64,000 bases of DNA from an uncultured Dehalococcoidia bacterium (GTDB taxonomy: Bacteria > Chloroflexota > Dehalococcoidia > SM23-28-2 > RBG-16-64-32), in NCBI GenBank assembly GCA_964558415.1, contig CAZLDI010000003.1:136627-200626 (forward strand). Reading direction: 5' to 3'. Made by a program: the position numbers and the translations under genes. Below, piece by piece: positions 2,800 through 63,737 of this stretch. The stretch's first letter is position 1; every line of letters starts with the position of its first letter. Under the pieces are notes generated by a model. The model was not told the DNA's origin. It was given only the letters and a program-made list of their open reading frames with translations, and did not search any database.

Positions 2800-2962
2800 C
2801 GAAAAGAATACAGAGGTACGGGTCTCCACGACCCTCCCGCGGCGGGCCGCTCGCCATGGGAGAGCAGGAGTCAAAAGCGAAGCCGGTGAGAGGCCGGCGC
2901 TGTCCCGCAACTGTATCCACGGGTCCGCTCAGTAGGACACCGCGGAAGTCAGGTCGCCTGCC
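2800..2962 (+). ncRNA. Cobalamin (B12) riboswitch aptamer
   Basis: The core GGGAGAGCAGGAGTCAAAAGCGAAGCCGGTGAGAGGCCGGCGCTGTCCCGCAACTGTA matches the GGUGnnAnUCCnnCGCnGnCCCGCnACUGU consensus. A B12-box-like GAAGTCAGGTCGCCTGCC follows at 2945-2962. It sits directly upstream of a B12 uptake operon. Confidence 0.7.
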
Positions 2963-3016
2963 CGTACTGATCAACCAGCCTTCGCGGAAAGGCATGGGCG
3001 TTGCGACGAGTCCGAG

Positions 3017-10618: not shown

Positions 10619-12049
10619 ATGGCTGAAACAGCCACCGACATCCCCGCGGACCTGGCGCAAGTCGCCGAGGAGAAGGGCATCCCGCCGGACCTCGTGCGCC
10701 GCGCGCTGGCGCTCGGCTTCCCCGCAGATGCGATCAAGATGCAGCTCAGCCAGCCCGACGCCAGCGCCGAAGCCGCCGAGCTGTTCATCAGCGAGCAGGA
10801 GCGCATCCGCGCCGGCGGCGAGATCACGCTGTCACCGGAGCTGGCTGAGCTCGCGCGCGAACACGACTGGCCGGAGGCGCTCGTGAAACGCGCGCTGAAG
10901 CTGGGCGCGCCGGTGGAGATGATCACGAACCAGATCAAGGCCGGCGTGCGGCCCGACCAGGCGGAAGGCTTCATCCGCCAGCAGGAGATCGCGCGCGACC
11001 AGGGGGTTGAGGCGACGCTGGACCTCTCCTGGATGCATGTCCCGACGGAGTGGGGGATACGGGTGCGCCCGGGCAAGAGGGGCCTCACCGTCGGCATGCT
11101 GAACGTCAGCACCTATGCGGACATCCCTGATTTCTGGCCCCACCAGAGCGAGATGCCGCGCGGCGCCTACCCGCTGCCCGGCGTGCCCGCGATGGGCTAC
11201 AGCATCTACGAGAAGGCGGAGCTGTGGTCCGAGAACTCCGCGGACCTCTACGAAGAAGCGATCCAGCGGCGCTGGCGGCCCTCCACCGACGTCAACTGGA
11301 ACAGCATCGAGCCGCTGCCGGATGTGATCGAGAAGGCGATGTGCCAGCTCTGCACCTTTCTCTGCGAGAAGGGGCTCCTGGAAGGCGACATCGTCGGGCG
11401 CTGGCTGCCGGAGATGTCTTACGGCTACCACGAGGTCAAGCTCTACCTTTCGACCGCGGCGTTCGACTACGCGCACCAGTTCGAGGTGTTCCGCAAGCGC
11501 GCGATGAGCAACGGCGGCGGCATGGGCCTCCAGAGCCCCGGCTACTTCCACCGCGCGATCATCGACGCGCGCGCCTGGACGGAGACGTCCGTGCTCTCCC
11601 ACATCCTCTCGAACAGCCATGTGATGGGGCTTTACGAGATCGGTCTCTACGTGGCGCACAACGAGGCGGAGCACCAGATCTTCAGCTACTGCATGCAGGA
11701 CACCGCGCGCCAGATCGCCTACGGCATTCAGCACCTCAAGTACTTCCTGCTGCGCCACGACGCACGGCGCCCTGAGGTCCAGAACTACCTGAACAAAGGC
11801 GAAGCGGTGTTCAACTTCGAGTCGGAGCGCGACACGCCGATCCGAGAGGCGCTGATCATCCTGCTGGGCGGCGGCATCGAGAAGGACCAGCTTCTGGACG
11901 GAACGCGCAAGCTGGAGTACTTTAAGCAGCGCTGGGTGCGCGCCTACGTGTCGCGTCTGGCAGCCGGGGGCATAGACCGCGCGGATAAGCTGCACCCGTC
12001 CCTCAAGAAATACGTCGACGAGCCGGCGGCGGCCCAGGCCGCAGCATAA
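10619..12049 (+). CDS. Ferritin-like paralog lacking all diiron ligands (candidate structural beta subunit) with an N-terminal tandem-repeat helical domain
   Basis: It is a clear paralog of the 8894-9979 protein (shared blocks LYEEA[IV]QR, SIEPLPD, AMCQLCTFL, VFRKRA.NGGG, HLKY). The ExxH sites are replaced (DYAHQ, QDTARQ) and the carboxylates are replaced (SNS). Two ~45-aa N-terminal repeats have the pattern (IP.DLVrRALaLGfP). AAGGAG sits 8 nt before the ATG. Confidence 0.55.
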   Translation: MAETATDIPADLAQVAEEKGIPPDLVRRALALGFPADAIKMQLSQPDASAEAAELFISEQERIRAGGEITLSPELAELAREHDWPEALVKRALKLGAPVEMITNQIKAGVRPDQAEGFIRQQEIARDQGVEATLDLSWMHVPTEWGIRVRPGKRGLTVGMLNVSTYADIPDFWPHQSEMPRGAYPLPGVPAMGYSIYEKAELWSENSADLYEEAIQRRWRPSTDVNWNSIEPLPDVIEKAMCQLCTFLCEKGLLEGDIVGRWLPEMSYGYHEVKLYLSTAAFDYAHQFEVFRKRAMSNGGGMGLQSPGYFHRAIIDARAWTETSVLSHILSNSHVMGLYEIGLYVAHNEAEHQIFSYCMQDTARQIAYGIQHLKYFLLRHDARRPEVQNYLNKGEAVFNFESERDTPIREALIILLGGGIEKDQLLDGTRKLEYFKQRWVRAYVSRLAAGGIDRADKLHPSLKKYVDEPAAAQAAA

Positions 12050-12070: not shown

Positions 12071-12520
12071 ATGACACAAGACGTTAAGGTCAAGGCCACG
12101 TTCCCCTCCGTGGAGTGGTTCAACGCGATCAAAGACCTGATCAACATAGACCCCGCGTACAAGCACTTCGGGACCTGCGACTCCACCGTCGGCCTCAAGA
12201 TACCGGAGCTGGAGAAGTACTTTCTCCTCACGTTCGAGGCGTTCGAAATCACGGACATCCGCGAGGTCAGCGACCGGGATGCGGAGAACACGGACTTCTG
12301 GATGGAGATGTCCTACGCGCGCTGGAAAGAGATGATCCAGAACATCAAGGACAATGGCAAGGCGGACCTCCATCACACCCTGAACACGATCGACCTCGAG
12401 GAGCCGGAGGGCCTGGCGCGTTCGAACGACGGTTACCGGCGCGACGCCTTCTACCGCTTCAACCAGTCTTACCAGCAGTACTTCGACACATCTGCGAAGA
12501 TCGACACCACCTTCCTGTAG
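12071..12520 (+). CDS. Small soluble protein, possibly SCP2 sterol-carrier-like
   Basis: It is a 149-aa ORF starting 21 nt after the beta-like gene. The SCP2 resemblance (DFWMEMSYARWKEMIQN.KDNGKADL) is weak. Confidence 0.4.
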   Translation: MTQDVKVKATFPSVEWFNAIKDLINIDPAYKHFGTCDSTVGLKIPELEKYFLLTFEAFEITDIREVSDRDAENTDFWMEMSYARWKEMIQNIKDNGKADLHHTLNTIDLEEPEGLARSNDGYRRDAFYRFNQSYQQYFDTSAKIDTTFL

Positions 12521-13611: not shown

Positions 13612-14424
13612 CTAGCGGAACTCCACGCGCGGGCGGAACCGCTCCTCCGCGCGCGCCACGAGCTCCTCCGCGAGCGCGCTTGCGCCGCGCGATAGCAGTT
13701 GCTGCAGGAGCGGCCGCCGCGGCCGCACGTACTGGAGACGGCGTGGCACGCGGCCCATCTCGCTGGCCATGTCGATCGCGGCCTCCACATCACCCAGCTC
13801 GTCGATCAGGCCCAGCTCTTTCGCCTTCGTGGCCGTGTACATCTCTCCGGTGGCGTACTCGCGCACGACCTCGGACGGCAGGTTGCGCGCCTTCGCAACG
13901 GCGTCGACGAACCAGCCGTAGTATTCGTCGGTCAGCGCCTCCACCTTCTGCTTCTCCTCGTCGCTGGGCTCGCGCCATGGCTGGAACATCGCCTTCAGCC
14001 GGCCCTGGTGGGTGACCACCATCTTCACGCCGACCTTCTCCATCAGCTCCTGCACTACCGGTCGTGTGAAAATGACGCCGATCGATCCCACCAGCGCCGT
14101 CGGCAGCGCCACGACCTTGGACGCCCCGCAGGCGATCAGATAGCCCCCCGAAAGCCCCGCGCTCATCACGAACGCCACGGTCGGCTTCCGCGCGGAGAGA
14201 CGCTGCAGCCCGCGGAAGATCGCGTCGGACACGCTCGCTGACCCGCCGGGCGAGTCGATCTCGACGACGACCGCGCGAATGCGCGCGTCGTCTCGCAACG
14301 CCTTCAGCATGCGCACGGTCTCTGGCCCGCGCACCTGTGCGCCGATCGCTCCGGTGATCTCCACGACCGCAATGCGCGGCCGCGACCAGGGGAGGTTAAG
14401 GCGGGCCGGATCGATGACTTCCAT
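13612..14424 (-). CDS. sppA: Signal peptide peptidase SppA (S49 family, 36K type)
   Basis: The VVEIDSPGGSASVSD and SAGLSGGYLIA S49 motifs are present. Confidence 0.85.
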   Translation of the reverse strand: MEVIDPARLNLPWSRPRIAVVEITGAIGAQVRGPETVRMLKALRDDARIRAVVVEIDSPGGSASVSDAIFRGLQRLSARKPTVAFVMSAGLSGGYLIACGASKVVALPTALVGSIGVIFTRPVVQELMEKVGVKMVVTHQGRLKAMFQPWREPSDEEKQKVEALTDEYYGWFVDAVAKARNLPSEVVREYATGEMYTATKAKELGLIDELGDVEAAIDMASEMGRVPRRLQYVRPRRPLLQQLLSRGASALAEELVARAEERFRPRVEFR

Positions 14425-14491
14425 GCCGTCAGTGTAGGGATAGACGTTCAGGTCTGTCCACAGGAACTGCTACTTCGCCCGGGCGCTAACC

Positions 14492-14968
14492 TTATTCGGC
14501 CAACGCGTCCAGCTCGCGAAGCGTCTCGTCGATCGTGGGGATCTCCCATTGCTGCCAGCCCAGATACGTATAGCGCACAATCCCCTTCGCGTCGATGATG
14601 AACAACGCCGGTCGCTGGCCGAGCGAGACCATCGCGCTCTTCACGTCGTACAGGCGGTACACCTCGCGCTCCGGGTCAGGCAGGCAGGGGAACGGCATGT
14701 CGTTTCGCTCGAAGTAAGCCCGCGCGCCCTCAAGCGTGTCGACTGCCAGCGCGAGCACCCGCGCGCCGCGCTCCTCGAAGTCCGCATATCGGTCCCGCAA
14801 CTGCGAGAGATGCCGCCGGCAGAACGGTCAGCCGAAGCCCCGCAGGAACACCAGCACCACCGGCCGCCCGCGCAGCGCCGACAGCCGGACCTGCGTTCCG
14901 TCGGTCGCGGTCAACTCGAAGTCCGGCGCCTCGGACCCGGTCTGGACGGCGTCGCTCGAGACTGGCAT
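14492..14968 (-). CDS. AhpC/TSA-redoxin (peroxiredoxin-like thiol-disulfide oxidoreductase) with one in-frame TGA at 14828-14830, either selenocysteine (UxxC) or a nonsense pseudogene
   Basis: ORFs 14828-15025 and 14492-14800 are in the same frame and together read ...[66 protein letters not shown].... The stop falls exactly where the first Cys of a CPFC redox motif is expected. The start is chosen at MPVSS (14968). Confidence 0.55.
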
Positions 14969-15036
14969 GGCGCGTCCGATTCTAGGGCAGTCGCCGAGCG
15001 GCGTCAAACGAACGCGTGCTATCATCTAGCCGCGTT

Positions 15037-16177
15037 GCGCATCATCATTTTTACGGGCCGAGGCGGCAGTGGCGTCAGCACGCTCGCCGCCGCCACCGCC
15101 GTCGCGATCGCCGGCGGTGGGCAGCGGACACTCGCGTTCGGCCTCGGCCCCGGCCTCGGTGCGGTGCTGGGCGAGCTGCTCTCGCACGAGCCGAAGGCCG
15201 TTGCGAAGGGGTTGGACGCCGCTGAGGGCGGCCACCGCTACGACGCCCCGGACGAGTTCCGCGACTGGCTCGGCGACCTGCTGGACTGGCGCGGGATGCA
15301 GGCGGAGCTGGCGGAAGACCTGGCGGCGCTGCCCGGCATGAACCACGTCGGCCGGCTGCTGGACCTTGAGGAACGCGTGAGCGGCGCCCGCTACGACTGC
15401 ATCGTCGTCGACGGCGCGCCTCTCGACCAGTTCCTCGGCCTCCCCCCCGGTCTCGAAGCGGCCGCGCGCTGGCTCGAGCGCCTGTTCGCCCCCCGCGAGC
15501 AGAGCGTCTTCGAGCCGTTCATCCGCGTCTTCGCCGGCGACTACGCGGAGACCGGCGAGGAGGTCTTCGACCGCGGACGCGAGCTGCTGACGCGCCTCGC
15601 GCAGGTCCGGCAGACGCTCGTCGATTCGGATATTTGCTCGGTGCGGGTAGTGCTGCCGCCGGACGGCGACGCCCTCGCTAGCGCGCGGGGCGCGCTGTCC
15701 GCTCTCAGTCTGTTCTCCTTCGCCACCGATGCCCTGCTGCTTTCACCGGCACTGCCCGCCCCGGTCAAAGACCCTTTCTTCGCCGGACGCCTCGCTGATC
15801 AAGAACAGGCGACGAAGGGCCTCGCGGCGCTGGTCAAGCCGATGCCCGTGCTGACGTCGACGCTATCGCCGCGCCCGCCGCGCGGCGCATCCGCGCTCGC
15901 CGATCTGGCCGCTGCGGTCTATGGCAGCCGTGCGTCTACCGACGTGCTGCACCGGGGCGACGCGCACTCCGTCTCGCGAGAAGGCGGCCGCTATGTGCTG
16001 TCCGTGGTTCTCCCGTTCGCGCGCAAGGACGACCTGAGCCTGGAGCAAGGCGACGACGGCGTGGCGGTGCACCTGAACGGCCGCCGCGCGGTGTTCCCCC
16101 TGCCGGAGGAAGCGCGCCACCAGCAGGCCGTCGCCTGGACGTTCGAGCCGCCGGTGCTGCGGGTGACGTTCGGGTAG
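15037..16177 (+). CDS. ArsA/GET3-family ATPase-like protein with a degenerate Walker A and a C-terminal ArsA_HSP20-like domain
   Basis: The N-terminus reads IIIFTGRGGSGVST (canonical ArsA is GKGGVGKTT) and ArsA-family blocks follow (YDCIVVDGAP). A C-terminal beta-sandwich-like segment is present. TTG at 15037 is the first possible start, and the long upstream ORF extension is antisense to the redoxin gene. Confidence 0.55.
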
Positions 16178-60354: not shown

Positions 60355-60429
60355 GGGCCTGTAGCTCAGCGGTAGAGCTCCGGACTTTTAATCCGGGAGT
60401 CGTGGGTTCGAATCCCACCGGGCCCTCCA
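60355..60429 (+). tRNA. tRNA-Lys (anticodon UUU)
   Basis: A manual cloverleaf fits: acceptor GGGCCUG/CGGGCCC, U8, D-arm GCUC-AGCGGUA-GAGC, anticodon stem CCGGA/UCCGG with loop CUUUUAA, T-arm GUGGG-UUCGAAU-CCCAC, and an encoded CCA. Confidence 0.85.
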
Positions 60430-60523: not shown

Positions 60524-61351
60524 TTAGATTATCTCGCGCCGCGCGAACAGCCAGGCCGCTGCAACGATTGGTATGGCCGCCCAGGCAGCGAGTGCCGCGG
60601 AGAGGATGGCGGTGGCGCCGGTGGCGCCGACGCTCTCCAGCAGGTACGAGCCGAACGGGCCCAGCACCTCGAGGTCTGGTTCGAGCTGGATGATCGCCAG
60701 GACGCGTACGACCTCCACGGGGTTGAGCAGAAGAGCGACGAGCAAACCAGTCCCACCGAGAGATGTCTGCGACACCGCGCCGATAAGGACAAGGTCGAAG
60801 AACAGCACGGCCACGAACCATACCATCATGGCGACGCCGAGCGCTTGCACGCGGCTGGTGGAAACGACCGAGATGAGCAGGCCGAGGCCAGTCATCACAG
60901 CGGTTAGCGCGAGGATGAGGCAGACAAGCGTGATGTAGGTCGAGACATCGACTGACGAGGCAAAGGTAGCGATGACGACGCCCCCAACACCGAATCCGGC
61001 GATGGTGGCGATGGCGATGGCAGAGGTTAGCCCGACGAACTTACCAAGAAGCAGGTCGAGCCGGCTGATCGGCTGCGAGAGCAGGTACGTGAGGCGCCCG
61101 CGGTCCCGCTCGCCGGCGATGCCCCCGGCGCCGAGAGAGAGCGCGATGAGCGGCGACAGCAGCAGACACAGGTTCAGGAGACTGGCTGTGGTGCGGCTGA
61201 AGTTCTCGAACCCAAGACCGCCCAGGTTCTTCTGGCCGAGGTACGAGAGGCCGAACGCCAGGGCCGCAAACACGGCGGCGTAAAGGGGGAGCCAGCGCCC
61301 GGCAACTGCGTCCTGGACCTCCTTGCGCGCGATCGTCGTCACGGCGTTCAC
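60524..61351 (-). CDS. nosY: ABC-2 type permease, NosY-like
   Basis: It is a 6-TM ABC-2 permease downstream of nosF/nosD-like genes. Confidence 0.7.
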   Translation of the reverse strand: MNAVTTIARKEVQDAVAGRWLPLYAAVFAALAFGLSYLGQKNLGGLGFENFSRTTASLLNLCLLLSPLIALSLGAGGIAGERDRGRLTYLLSQPISRLDLLLGKFVGLTSAIAIATIAGFGVGGVVIATFASSVDVSTYITLVCLILALTAVMTGLGLLISVVSTSRVQALGVAMMVWFVAVLFFDLVLIGAVSQTSLGGTGLLVALLLNPVEVVRVLAIIQLEPDLEVLGPFGSYLLESVGATGATAILSAALAAWAAIPIVAAAWLFARREII

Positions 61352-62193
61352 GGCCGTGCCTCCTCGCCGTCTCGGCGCGATGCGAGTTCCCGGCTGAGCG
61401 CGGTTTCGATGTTCGTCTCCTCAGGCGAGATGTGGTCTGGCTTGATTCCGACGTCAGCGAGCGCCGAGAGGAAGGCAGCCGGGGCGGTGCCGTTCAGGGT
61501 CACGACGAAGCGATTTTCCGCCCGGCGGTTGGCCAGCTCTGCAGCGGACATGTCGAGGATAATGTGGCCACGCTCCAGGACGATGAAGCGGTCAGCCAGC
61601 CCGCTGATACTCTCGGTGAAGTGGGTAGACAGGGCAACCGTCTTGCCCTCACTCCGCAGATCTCGCAGCATGTCGTGGAACTGCTGGCGACTCTCCAGGT
61701 CCAGGTTGGCTGTAGGTTCGTCCAGCAGCAGAACCGGCGGGTCCGAAAGCAGCGCAGCGGCCAGGGCGAGTCGCTGCCGCATGCCGCCCGAGAGCTCGCC
61801 GGCCTTCATCCGCCGCTCTTCGAACAAGTTGACTCGCCGTAGCAAGGTCTCGACCCGCGCGGGCCCGACACCCTTGAGTCCGGCAAAGAACTGCAGCGCG
61901 CCCTCGGTGGTGTCGGCTGCATCAAACGCCGGCGTCTGCGGCAGGTACCCGATGAGCCGCCGAGCGTCCTTGCCCCGGTCGCGGACGGACTTCCCGCCGA
62001 CCTCGACAGAGCCCTGGAAGCTGGTGATACCGAGGATGCACTTGAATGTAGTTGTCTTGCCCGCTCCGTTTGGCCCCAGGAGCGCAACGATTTGGCCGGG
62101 CTTCAGGGCGAACGTGAGGTTGTCGATGGCTGTGGTACGGCCGTAGCCCTTGGTCAGGCCGGTCACGGCTACGGCAGGCGCCAGTTCCGTCAT
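61348..62193 (-). CDS. nosF: ABC transporter ATP-binding protein, NosF-like
   Basis: GPNGAGKTT, LSGGMRQRL and LLLDEP are present. Confidence 0.8.
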   Translation of the reverse strand: MTELAPAVAVTGLTKGYGRTTAIDNLTFALKPGQIVALLGPNGAGKTTTFKCILGITSFQGSVEVGGKSVRDRGKDARRLIGYLPQTPAFDAADTTEGALQFFAGLKGVGPARVETLLRRVNLFEERRMKAGELSGGMRQRLALAAALLSDPPVLLLDEPTANLDLESRQQFHDMLRDLRSEGKTVALSTHFTESISGLADRFIVLERGHIILDMSAAELANRRAENRFVVTLNGTAPAAFLSALADVGIKPDHISPEETNIETALSRELASRRDGEEARP

Positions 62194-63737
62194 CCCACCC
62201 TCCCCGCTAGTCTGACGAGCCGCCCGACGGCGCGCCCCAACACATAGGTCGCATCCACGTCGAGGAACGCCTGCAGAAGTGCGGCTGACAGGAGCAACAG
62301 AAGCGCACTCACGATCAGCAGATTCGCGTTGAGCCCGGCGTCACGGGCCAGCGCCGGGCCGGGCGCCTCCATCAGCGGTCCACTGTCGCGCATCACCGCG
62401 TCGTACTCGTACACAGGAAACATATCAGCGGCGATGTCGATCGCCTGCTGAGCCACCGTGAACTGGAAGACTCTCAGGCCGTCGGCGCTGGCGAGCCCTC
62501 CGGCGAACGGGGGCCGGGGCTCGTAGGGCCTGTCGCCGACACCGTCGCCGTTCGCGTCGTACCCGCTGTAATCGCTCCAGTAGTTCCCCCGGCCACTGAG
62601 GGTCCACACGGCCGACTCCGGGCGGGAACTCGCTGAGGGTGTCGGCACGCTCTGCGAGCCCGTTTGCCCGGAGTGACCGTTATGGCTGGTGTTGGCGGGG
62701 GCGGATTCTGTCGATGGGGCGGCTCCGTGGCTGAGCGCACCACTGAGCGCCTGCACCTGCACGGTATTCTCTATCATCGCATTTTCTACGAACGTGATCG
62801 GCGCGTTCGTGAACAGACCGATGCCGGTGTCGTTGAGGGCAAGGGTGTTGGCTAAGAATGTCGCAGATGCGCCTGCCGAGTTCGGAGTGCCCTCAACCGT
62901 GATTCCGTACTTGTTGCGGAGGATGTTGTTGCCTTCCACGAAGATGTTATCGACGTCCTTGATCAGCATGCCGGCGCCGCTGGCGCCTTTTCGGTTGTTG
63001 GAAAGCTCGTTGTCCTTCAGCAGCAGGTCGTGCGAGAACATGAGGACCGCACCGGCAAGATTGTCCCGGAACGTGTTCTCCAGGATGCGATTGTTATCGG
63101 ACGACATGAAGTGCAACGCATAGCGGCTGTCGGTCACGGTGTTCTGCCCGATGCCGTTGTCGTCCGAGAATTCGAGGTGGATCCCGTCACCAGAGTGAGT
63201 GATGTTGTTCGCGCGAATCGCCGCCCCCTCAACCTCCCACAGGTAGATGCCATGTCCGCGCCTCTCCTGGGGGATGTCAGCGCCCTGGTCGATGTCGTTG
63301 AACGCTATCGTCGCGTGGTGGCTGCCCGTCACGTGTATTCCGTACAGGGAGTCGCGTATCTTGTTCGATCGAATGGCTGGCTCGTGAGCGTTCACGACTT
63401 TTATCGCCGCGCCCTCTTGGGACACGGCGCGCCCGCTGCCCACGATTTCGAATCCGGAGAGGGTGACGCCAGCAGCTCCGATGATCGTCACGACGTCGCC
63501 CTCGCCACCGCCGTCGATTATGGGTGAACCTACGCCGACAAGGGATAGCGGCTTGTCGATGATGATGTGCTCGCGGTAGACGCCTCCCTCAACGGTTATG
63601 CTGTCCCCGGGCGCCGCGGAGTCTATGAGCGCCTGGAGGGCGGCCGTGCCTGCGTCAGCGCGATCCGTCGAAACGGTCGAAGCGAAGGCGGCAAAGCCCA
63701 GGAGAACCGCCACGAGCAGGCAAGCGGCTTTTGGCAT
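62190..63737 (-). CDS. nosD: NosD-like periplasmic right-handed beta-helix (copper-enzyme maturation) protein
   Basis: It has a signal peptide and repeated parallel beta-helix (PbH1) units with IxxNxI periodicity. It is 515 aa. Confidence 0.7.
   Translation of the reverse strand: MPKAACLLVAVLLGFAAFASTVSTDRADAGTAALQALIDSAAPGDSITVEGGVYREHIIIDKPLSLVGVGSPIIDGGGEGDVVTIIGAAGVTLSGFEIVGSGRAVSQEGAAIKVVNAHEPAIRSNKIRDSLYGIHVTGSHHATIAFNDIDQGADIPQERRGHGIYLWEVEGAAIRANNITHSGDGIHLEFSDDNGIGQNTVTDSRYALHFMSSDNNRILENTFRDNLAGAVLMFSHDLLLKDNELSNNRKGASGAGMLIKDVDNIFVEGNNILRNKYGITVEGTPNSAGASATFLANTLALNDTGIGLFTNAPITFVENAMIENTVQVQALSGALSHGAAPSTESAPANTSHNGHSGQTGSQSVPTPSASSRPESAVWTLSGRGNYWSDYSGYDANGDGVGDRPYEPRPPFAGGLASADGLRVFQFTVAQQAIDIAADMFPVYEYDAVMRDSGPLMEAPGPALARDAGLNANLLIVSALLLLLSAALLQAFLDVDATYVLGRAVGRLVRLAGRVG

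What the first reader, a model, noticed from the sequence alone, without database searches (positions are those of the whole stretch)
14492..15025. Peroxiredoxin-like redoxin gene interrupted by a single in-frame TGA at the U/CxxC position: selenoprotein candidate or nascent pseudogene
Two minus-strand ORFs (15025-14828 and 14800-14492) are in the same frame. Together they form one conserved AhpC/TSA-redoxin sequence whose only interruption is a TGA at 14828-14830. Reading through gives ...[20 protein letters not shown]..., so the stop sits exactly where the first Cys of a CPFC thioredoxin-fold motif is expected. Read as selenocysteine it gives UPFC. Prx-like thiol-disulfide oxidoreductases with UxxC are an established bacterial selenoprotein family. 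The flanking sequence shows no other frameshift or stop, which argues against long-standing decay. Downstream on the mRNA, about 17-20 nt after the UGA, a small hairpin CUCGC-AGUU-GCGGG (6 bp) with a G/U-containing loop can form, roughly where a bacterial SECIS apical loop sits. No selA/selB/selD or tRNA-Sec is in this window, so the call stays open.
Basis: partly seen in the sequence, partly recalled or inferred. Interest (0 to 1): 0.72.

Follow-up and report, generated by a model that had tools for sequence, protein, structure and literature searches.

The report
Selenocysteine redoxin gene with SECIS hairpin
The apparent stop codon inside this small peroxiredoxin-like gene is almost certainly read as selenocysteine, because all 57 related genomes checked keep the same TGA followed by the same co-varying RNA hairpin; this is a real but ordinary member of a known class of bacterial selenoproteins that gene callers routinely split in two.

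Summary
A single in-frame TGA (14830-14828, minus strand) interrupts an otherwise intact AhpC/TSA-fold gene, giving the motif FLRGFG-U-PFC-RRH. It is not a pseudogene. All 57 orthologues that cover the codon carry TGA there; they come from Chloroflexota, Actinomycetota and one Acidobacteriota MAG and share 46-77% identity. No orthologue has Cys or any other codon. Both flanks, and the nine codons right after the TGA, are under purifying selection in the same frame. Nineteen nt after the TGA lies a 6-bp hairpin with an AGUU loop. It shows strong compensatory covariation and meets all four criteria of the published bacterial SECIS model. Two more distant TGA-containing relatives keep the hairpin with different stem sequences. 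Five Cys-containing relatives (41% identity or less) do not keep it. TGA is an ordinary stop in this window, so the recoding is local. Best explanation: a cytoplasmic Prx-like UxxC thiol/selenol oxidoreductase whose Sec is inserted through SelB and SECIS. Main gap: no selA, selB, selD or tRNA-Sec lies in the window, and the rest of the genome could not be searched. PF00578 proteins with UxxC are an established selenoprotein family, and Dehalococcoidia are known Sec users. I therefore file it as a new member of a known kind, of moderate to low interest.

The parts
14492..14968 (-). Complete selenoprotein coding sequence: 158 codons including Sec47, plus TAA stop at 14494-14492. It encodes a Prx-like (AhpC/TSA fold) redoxin, MPVSSD...LDALAE.
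   Evidence: Translation. Pfam PF00578 at 1.1e-32. The start is shared with all orthologues. pN/pS is 0.36 for the N-terminal part, 0.10 for codons +1..+9 and 0.33 for the C-terminal part.
14828..14830 (-). In-frame TGA read as selenocysteine (Sec47), the first position of the U-P-F-C redox motif.
   Evidence: TGA in 57 of 57 orthologues and in 2 distant relatives; TGT or TGC in 5 Cys homologues.
14819..14821 (-). TGC codon for Cys50, the second residue of the UxxC motif. It aligns with the peroxidatic Cys of peroxiredoxins and is the inferred resolving residue.
   Evidence: Cys in 55 of 57 orthologues. Alignment to BCP/PrxQ structures 2ywn and 2cx3.
14793..14808 (-). SECIS-like hairpin: 5' arm 14808-14803 (UCUCGC) and 3' arm 14798-14793 (GCGGGA). 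Nineteen nt lie between the UGA and the stem, and 25 nt between the UGA and the loop.
   Evidence: RNAalifold predicts the same 6 bp. Covariation score is 0.502, against 0.120 in shuffles (0 of 500 reach it) and at most 0.127 in slid controls. Hairpin energy is -7.9 kcal/mol.
14799..14802 (-). Apical tetraloop AGUU, with G at loop position 2 followed by U. It is made from the Gln-Leu codons CAG-TTG.
   Evidence: CAGTTG occurs in 54 of 57 orthologues. The Leu codon is TTG in 56 of 57, although TTG is only 7.4% of Leu codons in the window's genes.
14979..15007 (-). Promoter-like site: -35 TTGACG (15007-15002), 17-nt spacer, -10 TAGAAT (14984-14979). Only 10 nt separate it from the ATG and there is no Shine-Dalgarno sequence, so the mRNA is inferred to be leaderless or nearly so.
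   Evidence: The consensus scan gives 10 of 12 matches, with 0.1 sites expected. The same TTGAC...TAnnAT arrangement is conserved in about 24 close orthologues.

Best explanation
The gene at 14968-14492 (minus strand) encodes one 158-residue cytoplasmic selenoprotein with a peroxiredoxin (BCP/PrxQ-like) fold.

Inferred decoding mechanism, which fits all the sequence evidence: the ribosome reaches UGA47. The mRNA hairpin 19 nt downstream (6 bp, AGUU loop with a G-U step) is bound by the Sec-specific elongation factor SelB carrying Sec-tRNASec. Selenocysteine is inserted instead of termination, and translation continues to the TAA at 14494-14492.

Inferred protein function: Sec47 sits at the N-terminal cap of the first active-site helix, in the position of the attacking cysteine of a thioredoxin-type CxxC motif. 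It aligns with the conserved Thr of the peroxiredoxin PxxxTxxC motif. Cys50 occupies the position of the peroxidatic Cys. The inferred chemistry is a Sec47 selenolate attacking an oxidised substrate (a disulfide, sulfenate or peroxide), resolution by Cys50 to a selenenylsulfide, and re-reduction by a thioredoxin-type reductant. The physiological substrate is unknown.

Shown here: the conserved TGA, translation on both sides of it, the co-varying hairpin specific to the TGA forms, and the fold. Inferred: SelB/tRNASec dependence, actual selenium incorporation, and the redox chemistry.
For: (1) The TGA is universally conserved.
- The genome scan used C-terminal peptide patterns that do not depend on the Sec codon, and it returned 58 loci from species-representative MAGs.
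- All 56 loci that cover the codon, plus the window itself, have TGA.
- Of the 120 best protein hits, 119 are 87-105-aa C-terminal fragments truncated at the same point.
- The single full-length hit (P0058) has 'W' there only because of a code-4 gene call; its DNA has TGA.

(2) Translation runs through the TGA.
- In 24 ungapped close orthologues, pN/pS is 0.36 upstream, 0.10 for the nine codons PFCRRHLxQ between the TGA and the TTG, and 0.33 downstream.
- Pro+1 uses all four codons, and Arg+5 uses both CGG and AGG.

(3) Cys homologues align with the TGA. P0122, P0127, P0129, P0133 and P0135 have CPFC encoded by TGT or TGC.

(4) The hairpin behaves as a SECIS.
- RNAalifold independently finds the 6-bp stem.
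- Four pairs show double compensatory changes. There are 73 double-change cells against 13 in shuffles, 0 of 500 shuffles reach the observed score, and slid registers score at most 0.127 against 0.502.
- It satisfies all four criteria of the bSECIS model in PMC13188914: a 4-nt loop (3-9 allowed) with a 6-bp stem (4-16 allowed); G in the first two loop positions followed by U; 25 nt from the UGA to the loop (16-37 allowed); and -7.9 kcal/mol (-7.5 or lower required).

(5) The hairpin tracks the TGA.
- Among the 57 Sec forms, 53 have 6 of 6 pairs and 4 have 5 of 6.
- Two distant TGA forms (L072 and L073) have 6 of 6 pairs and an AGUU loop, with different stem sequences.
- Five Cys forms have 4, 3, 5, 3 and 3 of 6 pairs, with loops AGCU, AGCU, UUUU, AGUU and GCCU.

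(6) The recoding is local. TGA ends 20 of 56 predicted genes in the window.

(7) Fold and motif.
- PF00578 matches at 1.1e-32.
- The AF2 model of Cys homologue P0122 has pLDDT 92.7. It places the Sec-equivalent Cys39 at the N-cap of helix 40-51.
- Foldseek gives TM 0.85-0.91 to BCP/PrxQ structures.

(8) Lineage.
- The Sec-decoding trait is documented in Chloroflexi, Actinobacteria and Acidobacteria (PMC1794560).
- Dehalococcoidia MAGs with 46-49 selenoproteins are listed in BSepDB (PMC13326102).
Against: - No selA, selB, selD or tRNA-Sec was found in the 64-kb window or in the flanks of 54 related loci. The rest of this genome could not be searched, so Sec competence of this organism is inferred from its lineage, not shown.
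- No Rfam family matches the hairpin.
- The hairpin is short. The 60-nt region folds no better than shuffles (z=+0.59), and the 24-nt hairpin alone is only marginal (z=-1.77, 16 of 200 shuffles). The case therefore rests on covariation, not thermodynamics.
- The loop and stem lie in conserved codons (L-x-Q-L-x-x), so part of the sequence conservation is protein-level.
- Only five Cys-form DNA sequences were available as a control.
- There is no direct evidence of selenium in the protein.
Confidence: 0.93

Rival explanations
1. Nascent pseudogene: a recent nonsense mutation (TGC or TGT to TGA) inactivated a Cys-type redoxin in this genome.
For: A single in-frame stop at a codon one mutation away from Cys. 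No Sec machinery in the window.
Against: The same TGA is present in 57 of 57 orthologues at 46-77% identity in three phyla, with no other lesions. Purifying selection acts on both sides. No Cys orthologue above about 41% identity exists among 5.8 billion and 1.8 billion proteins searched.
Confidence: 0.01
2. Sequencing or assembly error that created a false TGA in this window.
For: The source is a metagenome-assembled sequence.
Against: Independent assemblies hold the identical sequence with the TGA: Logan SRR6155509, Logan SRR6155503 and JGI 3300010391. So do all orthologues from unrelated projects.
Confidence: 0.005
3. Read-through without selenocysteine: UGA47 is decoded by a near-cognate or suppressor tRNA (Trp, Cys or Gly), or through a lineage-wide code change, and the hairpin merely stimulates read-through.
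For: Sequence alone cannot tell which amino acid is inserted. Sec machinery is unverified for this genome. Downstream hairpins can stimulate stop-codon read-through in other systems (general knowledge).
Against: TGA is a normal stop for 20 of 56 genes in the window, so the code is not reassigned. The codon sits exactly where Cys homologues have their N-terminal redox Cys, and Trp or Gly there would destroy the motif. The hairpin meets every bSECIS criterion, including the G-U step in the loop and the UGA-to-loop distance (PMC13188914). The host lineages are documented Sec users (PMC1794560, PMC13326102).
Confidence: 0.03
4. Genuinely split gene: translation ends at the TGA to give a 46-aa peptide, and a separate 102-aa protein starts at the conserved TTG (14800), as gene callers annotate it.
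For: The TTG is conserved in 56 of 57 orthologues and lies 27 nt after the TGA. All automatic annotations call two genes.
Against: The nine codons between the TGA and the TTG (P-F-C-R-R-H-L-x-Q) are the most strongly protein-constrained part of the gene (pN/pS 0.10) and vary freely at synonymous sites. They must therefore be translated in this frame. The split would remove the redox motif from both pieces and cut a single Prx fold in the middle of its active-site helix. TTG conservation is explained by its place in the AGUU-G loop and closing pair. Cys forms use CTG, TTA or CTC at that codon.
Confidence: 0.02

Closest known systems
Prx-like thiol:disulfide oxidoreductase selenoproteins (PF00578, UxxC/UxxU). 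This is 'Prx-like 1' in the GOS selenoproteome; the type member is Geobacter sulfurreducens WP_010940744.1. Sources: PMC1794560, PMC2398784, PMC13188914.
   Same: Same Pfam domain (PF00578) and same Sec-containing motif (UxxC). Sec replaces the N-terminal Cys of a CxxC motif on a peroxiredoxin fold. Cys-containing homologues exist. The SECIS lies in the coding sequence just downstream of the UGA.
   Different: In this orthologous group, every member at 46% identity or more is a Sec form and Cys forms appear only at 41% or less. In the GOS 'Prx-like 1' family, Cys forms outnumber Sec forms about 12 to 1 (PMC2398784). The hosts here are Chloroflexota and Actinomycetota, not Deltaproteobacteria or marine plankton. 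The protein carries a family-specific GWQQWEIP motif.
NCBIfam NF040769 SelL-related redox protein, and eukaryotic selenoprotein L / PRX-like-2 proteins.
   Same: It is the best-scoring curated NCBIfam model (98.6 bits, E=3e-28). It also has a CxxC/UxxC-type motif on a Prx-like fold, followed by basic residues.
   Different: The score is below the curated cutoff of 120 bits, and only profile positions 2-105 of 173 align. The same holds for P0058 and for the Cys relatives, which score 54-82 bits. SelL has UxxU. The gene is not a member by the curated threshold.
Canonical peroxiredoxins of the BCP/PrxQ class (for example PDB 2ywn, 2cx3, 3hjp) and the selenoprotein Prx (TxxU).
   Same: They are the closest solved structures by sequence (E=2e-19) and by fold (TM 0.85-0.91). 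The Cys aligned with the peroxidatic Cys (C50) and the conserved Arg (R119 in GQRP) are retained.
   Different: The PxxxTxxC signature is broken. Pro is replaced by Arg44 and the catalytic Thr is replaced by Sec47. In the selenoprotein Prx the Sec replaces the peroxidatic Cys (TxxU); here the Sec is three residues upstream (UxxC), a thioredoxin-like arrangement as in ResA/TlpA.
Bacterial SECIS elements, as described by the bSECISearch consensus (PMC13188914 Fig. 2).
   Same: A stem-loop inside the coding sequence downstream of the UGA: 4-nt loop, 6-bp upper stem, G followed by U in the loop, 25-nt UGA-to-loop spacing, and -7.9 kcal/mol. All are within the consensus ranges.
   Different: The element is very compact, and no conserved lower stem was detected by RNAalifold. 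SelB binding was not tested, and no Rfam model covers it.

Membership tests
Bacterial selenoprotein gene (Sec-UGA plus bSECIS) | In-frame UGA conserved among orthologues, with coding conservation on both sides | tested here: met
   TGA in 57 of 57 orthologues. pN/pS is 0.36, 0.10 and 0.33 upstream, just after and downstream of the TGA.
Bacterial selenoprotein gene (Sec-UGA plus bSECIS) | Cys-containing homologues align with the UGA position | tested here: met
   P0122, P0127, P0129, P0133 and P0135 have CPFC with TGT or TGC at the aligned codon.
Bacterial selenoprotein gene (Sec-UGA plus bSECIS) | Downstream stem-loop fitting the bSECIS consensus: loop of 3-9 nt, stem of 4-16 bp, G in the first two loop positions, 16-37 nt from the UGA, and -7.5 kcal/mol or lower | tested here: met
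   Loop AGUU, 6 bp, 25 nt, -7.9 kcal/mol (criteria from PMC13188914). Covariation: 0 of 500 shuffles reach the observed score. The hairpin is specific to TGA forms.
Bacterial selenoprotein gene (Sec-UGA plus bSECIS) | The genome encodes SelA, SelB, SelD and tRNA-Sec | not testable with these tools
   None is in the 64-kb window or in locus flanks. Only lineage-level support exists (PMC1794560, PMC5389517, PMC13326102).
Bacterial selenoprotein gene (Sec-UGA plus bSECIS) | Selenium is actually incorporated at the UGA | not testable with these tools
   This needs 75Se labelling or mass spectrometry.
Prx-like thiol:disulfide oxidoreductase selenoprotein family (PF00578, UxxC) | PF00578 AhpC/TSA domain above the gathering threshold | tested here: met
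   113.1 bits against a cutoff of 26.
Prx-like thiol:disulfide oxidoreductase selenoprotein family (PF00578, UxxC) | Sec in a UxxC redox motif | tested here: met
   U-P-F-C; the Cys is conserved in 55 of 57 orthologues.
Prx-like thiol:disulfide oxidoreductase selenoprotein family (PF00578, UxxC) | Specific sequence relationship to described members (for example WP_010940744.1) | not tested
Canonical peroxiredoxin (Prx) | PxxxTxxC active-site signature plus the conserved Arg | tested here: not met
   Alignment to 2ywn and 2cx3 shows Pro replaced by Arg44 and Thr replaced by Sec47. The peroxidatic Cys equivalent (C50) and the Arg (R119) are retained.
NCBIfam NF040769 SelL-related redox protein | Score at or above the curated cutoff of 120 bits | tested here: not met
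   98.6 bits, covering profile positions 2-105 of 173. Relatives score 54-82 bits.
Thioredoxin-fold CxxC oxidoreductase | First redox residue at the N-terminus of the active-site helix, following a beta strand | tested here: met
   In the AF2 model of Cys homologue P0122 (pLDDT 92.7), Cys39, the Sec equivalent, immediately precedes helix 40-51 after strand 28-33. ResA structures match at TM 0.75-0.79.

The most novel reading that the evidence does not exclude
This may be a distinct, so far uncatalogued selenoprotein subfamily with three unusual properties. It is effectively obligately Sec, with no Cys orthologue down to about 45% identity across Chloroflexota, Actinomycetota and Acidobacteriota. 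It carries a minimal 6-bp AGUU-tetraloop SECIS built from the codons L-x-Q-L-x-x, whose stem covariation forces correlated amino-acid replacements (S..R-D, R..T-E and A..R-D). Its distribution matches the two phyla reported to use the unusual 8/4-type tRNASec (PMC5389517), which hints at co-transfer or co-adaptation of the selenoprotein, its SECIS and the decoding machinery.
Probability: 0.3. Interest if true: 0.45.

Novelty: new member of a known kind. Interest (0 to 1): 0.35.

Why it matters
In practical terms, the gene is mis-annotated as two fragments (46 aa plus about 101 aa) in every assembly examined. It is occasionally 'rescued' as a Trp-containing protein by code-4 gene calls. This shows how selenoproteins are systematically lost from MAG annotations of Chloroflexota and Actinomycetota.

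Biologically, it adds a well-supported UxxC Prx-like selenoprotein to soil, groundwater and sediment Dehalococcoidia-type lineages. That implies these organisms depend on selenium for part of their thiol redox metabolism.

The clade gives an unusually clean natural experiment on bacterial SECIS constraints. There are 57 TGA forms with a co-varying hairpin, and Cys relatives without it. The clade is also unusual in having no Cys orthologues.

It does not change any concept. PF00578 proteins with UxxC, and SECIS-directed recoding, are textbook.

Tried and rejected
- Rfam scans of the whole window at gathering thresholds and of 14400-15100 at E up to 10 found nothing relevant at the site. No match here is uninformative about whether the hairpin is a SECIS.
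- ARAGORN on the window and on 54 related loci found no tRNA-Sec. This is uninformative, because the flanks are short and Chloroflexi tRNASec can be non-canonical (PMC5389517).
- Pfam scans of 20 large window ORFs, plus precomputed Pfam for the 4-24 kb region, found no SelA, SelB or SelD.
- A scan of the window for other in-frame TGA genes with good coding signal on both sides found only this gene. Three relaxed-filter hits are antisense shadow ORFs.
- Single-sequence folding of the 60 nt after the UGA is not better than shuffles (z=+0.59), so thermodynamic stability was rejected as evidence.
- Neighbourhood analysis for a conserved partner gene: ArsA-like ATPase and SppA synteny holds only in the closest clade (20 and 22 of 59 loci). 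Distant clades have unrelated neighbours, so no functional partner could be inferred.
- P0058, P0123 and P0130 appeared to carry Trp at the site. This was rejected: their DNA has TGA, and the products were called with genetic code 4.
- BSepDB supplementary tables, which could have shown whether these MAGs or this family are already catalogued, are not held.
- The cluster look-up for accession or organism names of the window's proteins returned no names.
P0058 was used instead.
Full report
**1. Observation.**
On the minus strand, the ORFs 15025-14828 and 14800-14492 share one frame. They are separated only by TGA at 14830-14828. Read-through gives ...[28 protein letters not shown].... With Cys substituted at the stop, the 158-residue product matches Pfam AhpC-TSA (PF00578) at E=1.1e-32 over residues 11-133, spanning both sides of the stop. 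It also matches Redoxin at 1.4e-22.

The true start is ATG 14968 (MPVSSD...), not ATG 15025. Every orthologue starts at the equivalent MP(V/I/T). Gene callers give a 46-aa N-terminal piece. A -35 TTGACG / 17 nt / -10 TAGAAT promoter match at 15007-14979 lies downstream of 15025. The gene ends with TAA at 14494-14492. The same sequence, with the TGA, occurs in three independent assemblies: Logan SRR6155509, Logan SRR6155503 and JGI 3300010391. A sequencing error is therefore excluded.

**2. Comparative test of the stop codon.**
A protein search with the read-through sequence returned 120 listed hits. Of these, 119 are 87-105-aa products covering only the C-terminal ~55-65% of the query, which means gene calls truncated at the same place in relatives of 65-79% identity. 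The only full-length hit, P0058, shows 'W' at the position. Its DNA (L066) has TGA, and the tool reports that the gene does not translate to the protein under code 11. The 'W' is therefore a code-4 gene call.

I then scanned one genome per species (GTDB representatives). The peptide patterns came from the C-terminal part ([YH]LG[WG]QQWE and SLGQRPGLF), so the scan is blind to the Sec/Cys state. It gave 58 loci in MAGs of:
- Chloroflexota (Dehalococcoidia, Anaerolineae, Caldilineae),
- Actinomycetota/Acidimicrobiia,
- one Thermoanaerobaculia.

Every locus that covers the codon has TGA: 56 loci plus the window, 57 sequences in all. None has Cys or anything else, and none carries another in-frame stop. 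Two loci keep the TGA but have lost the second Cys (L044 U-P-F-G and L060 U-P-F-A).

**3. Is the region after the TGA translated?**
In 24 close orthologues that align without gaps, Nei-Gojobori proportions are as follows.

| Segment | pN | pS | pN/pS |
|---|---|---|---|
| 46 N-terminal codons | 0.211 | 0.589 | 0.36 |
| Nine codons between the TGA and the TTG that gene callers take as a start | 0.034 | 0.350 | 0.10 |
| C-terminal 101 codons | 0.182 | 0.550 | 0.33 |

Pro+1 uses CCG, CCC, CCA and CCT. Arg+4 uses four CGN codons. Arg+5 uses CGG and AGG. His+6 uses CAC and CAT. The nine codons that a 'split gene' would leave untranslated are thus the most protein-constrained in the gene. The pseudogene and split-gene readings are refuted.

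TGA is the ordinary stop of 20 of 56 predicted genes in the window. The genetic code is therefore standard and the recoding is site-specific.

**4. The hairpin.**
I aligned 69 nt around the TGA from the 57 sequences (A2, ungapped). RNAalifold predicts one consensus helix, columns 29-34 paired with 39-44, with a 4-nt loop. Four of the six pairs show double compensatory changes.

Counting pairs for the 7-pair version gives:
- 88.5% of cells paired, against 68.0% in shuffles;
- 73 double-change cells, against 13.0;
- a covariation score of 0.502, against 0.120, reached by 0 of 500 shuffles;
- registers slid by 1-3 columns, which preserve phylogeny, score at most 0.127.

The central pair occurs as G-C, C-G, U-G, U-A and G-U. 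The compensations change amino acids in concert: L-S-Q-L-R-D, L-R-Q-L-T-E and L-A-Q-L-R-D/R/Q.

The loop is AGUU in 54 of 57 sequences. Its Leu codon is TTG in 56 of 57, although TTG is only 7.4% of Leu codons in the window's genes and only 3-6 of 57 at other invariant Leu positions of this gene.

In the window, the stem is 14808-14803 paired with 14798-14793 and the loop is 14802-14799. The stem begins 19 nt after the UGA, and the loop begins after 25 nt. The isolated hairpin folds at -7.9 kcal/mol.

These values meet all four constraints of the published bacterial SECIS model (PMC13188914, Fig. 2 legend):
- a 3-9-nt loop and a 4-16-bp stem;
- G in the first two loop positions, usually followed by G or U;
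- 16-37 nt between the UGA and the loop;
- an MFE of -7.5 kcal/mol or lower.

One caveat applies. The 60-nt region does not fold better than shuffles (z=+0.59), so the argument rests on covariation, not stability. Rfam has no matching family.

**5. Control: Sec forms against Cys forms.**
An exhaustive representative search with P0058 found full-length relatives only at 41% identity or less. Several have CPFC (P0122, P0127, P0129, P0133, P0135). Two more show 'W' (P0123, P0130).

Their DNA shows the following.

| Group | Codon at the site | Pairs in the SECIS register | Loop |
|---|---|---|---|
| Five Cys forms | TGT or TGC | 4, 3, 5, 3 and 3 of 6 | AGCU, AGCU, UUUU, AGUU, GCCU |
| Two 'W' forms (L072, L073) | TGA | 6 of 6 in both | AGUU, with stems UGAUGC/GCAUCA and UGGCGC/GCGCCA |
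| 57 orthologues | TGA | 6 of 6 in 53, 5 of 6 in 4 | AGUU in 54 of 57 |

The hairpin therefore follows the TGA and not the protein family, as expected of a SECIS.

**6. What the protein is.**
The closest solved sequences are BCP/PrxQ-type peroxiredoxins (2ywn at 2e-19, 2cx3 at 5e-19), followed by ResA-type thiol-disulfide oxidoreductases. In those alignments:
- Sec47 aligns with the conserved Thr of PxxxTxxC;
- Cys50 aligns with the peroxidatic Cys;
- Arg119 (GQRP) aligns with the catalytic Arg;
- the Pro is replaced by Arg44.

The protein is therefore not a canonical peroxiredoxin. It carries a thioredoxin-like UxxC motif on a Prx scaffold.

An AlphaFold model of the Cys homologue P0122 (pLDDT 92.7, pTM 0.89) puts the Sec-equivalent Cys39 at the N-cap of helix 40-51 after strand 28-33. 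Foldseek gives TM 0.85-0.91 to Bcp/PrxQ structures and 0.75-0.79 to ResA.

No NCBIfam model reaches its curated cutoff. The best is SelL_rel_redox (NF040769) at 98.6 bits against 120, covering only profile positions 2-105 of 173. Relatives score 54-82 bits.

By my reading of the N-terminal sequence, there is no signal peptide. The inferred chemistry is attack by the Sec47 selenolate, resolution by Cys50 to a selenenylsulfide, and reduction by a thioredoxin-type partner. The substrate is unknown.

Synteny with a divergent ArsA-like ATPase (15035-16177, plus strand) and a downstream S49/SppA peptidase (13612-14424, minus strand) is confined to the closest clade. More distant clades have other neighbours. 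No partner can be inferred.

**7. Sec machinery.**
No tRNA-Sec or Sec-pathway gene was found in the window. No tRNA gene was found in the flanks of 54 related loci. The redoxin is the only credible in-frame-TGA gene in the window.

Lineage-level support comes from the literature:
- the Sec-decoding trait and selenoproteins are reported in Chloroflexi, Actinobacteria and Acidobacteria (PMC1794560);
- 8/4-type tRNASec is reported in Actinobacteria and Chloroflexi (PMC5389517);
- Dehalococcoidia MAGs with 46-49 selenoproteins are listed in BSepDB (PMC13326102).

**8. Comparison with what is known, and novelty.**
'Prx-like thiol:disulfide oxidoreductase' (PF00578; UxxC/UxxU) is listed among prokaryotic selenoprotein families predicted with high confidence (PMC13188914). 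'Prx-like 1' (pfam00578, UxxC) had 225 Sec members and 2,740 Cys members in the GOS data (PMC2398784). By domain and motif, this gene belongs to that kind.

Three things are less usual. The orthologous group appears to be exclusively Sec across three phyla. The SECIS is very compact and co-varies cleanly. The group is not covered by any curated NCBIfam model, so it is split in all annotations seen. Whether BSepDB already lists it could not be checked.

**Verdict.** This is a genuine selenoprotein gene, with 0.93 confidence. It is a new member of a known kind, and its interest is moderate to low (0.35).

Noticed in passing
window 14979-15007 (-) and 14431-14460 (-): Both the redoxin gene and the downstream SppA gene have sigma-70-like -35/-10 matches ending only 10 and 6 nt before their ATG, with no Shine-Dalgarno sequence. 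This suggests leaderless or near-leaderless mRNAs. The TTGAC...TAnnAT arrangement is conserved upstream of the redoxin gene in about 24 close orthologues, whereas distant clades have GGAGG-type ribosome-binding sites.
   Followed up: partly
window 2803-2979 (+): A cobalamin riboswitch (Rfam RF00174, 54.8 bits) lies upstream of an ABC uptake cluster (Peripla_BP_2, FecCD, ABC_tran) and a Cob_adeno_trans gene.
   Followed up: no
window 10619-12049 (+) and 12071-12520 (+): An adjacent pair of genes (476 aa and 149 aa) has no Pfam hit on record. The pair is conserved in the same order next to the redoxin neighbourhood in a MAG whose redoxin is 69% identical (L003 12712-14145 and 12220-12669). Its function is unknown.
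   Followed up: no
L066 (P0058), L072 (P0123), L073 (P0130): Public protein collections hold 'full-length' versions of these selenoproteins with Trp at the Sec position. Short metagenomic contigs were gene-called with genetic code 4, but the DNA has TGA. This artefact could mislead Sec/Cys/Trp comparisons.
   Followed up: yes
L044 about 3142 and L060 about 3145 (locus coordinates): Two orthologues keep the TGA and the hairpin but have lost the second Cys of the motif (U-P-F-G and U-P-F-A). This hints that the Sec alone may suffice, as in a 1-Cys-type mechanism, or that these copies are degenerating.
   Followed up: no
window 14549-16177 (+): The mechanical 542-aa ORF is a chimera. Its first ~160 codons are an antisense shadow of the redoxin gene in this 69% GC region. 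The real ArsA-like ATPase (ArsA_ATPase plus ArsA_HSP20, 380 aa) starts at TTG 15035, diverging from the redoxin gene across a 66-bp intergenic region.
   Followed up: partly
window 60355-60429 (+) and 60524-63737 (-): A tRNA-Lys(UUU) gene lies next to a NosD-like beta-helix protein with ABC-2 permease and ABC ATPase genes, a NosDFY-like cluster.
   Followed up: no
L074 1001-1794: In one Cys-form relative (P0133, GCA_016930695.1), the redoxin gene overlaps by 4 nt with a CxxCxxCC-domain (PF03692) gene, a possible redox partner. This is not seen next to the Sec forms.
   Followed up: no
P0121 (1430 aa, no locus): The top hit of the representative search is a 1430-residue protein with five separate stretches matching this redoxin domain, an unusual multi-redoxin architecture.
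   Followed up: no
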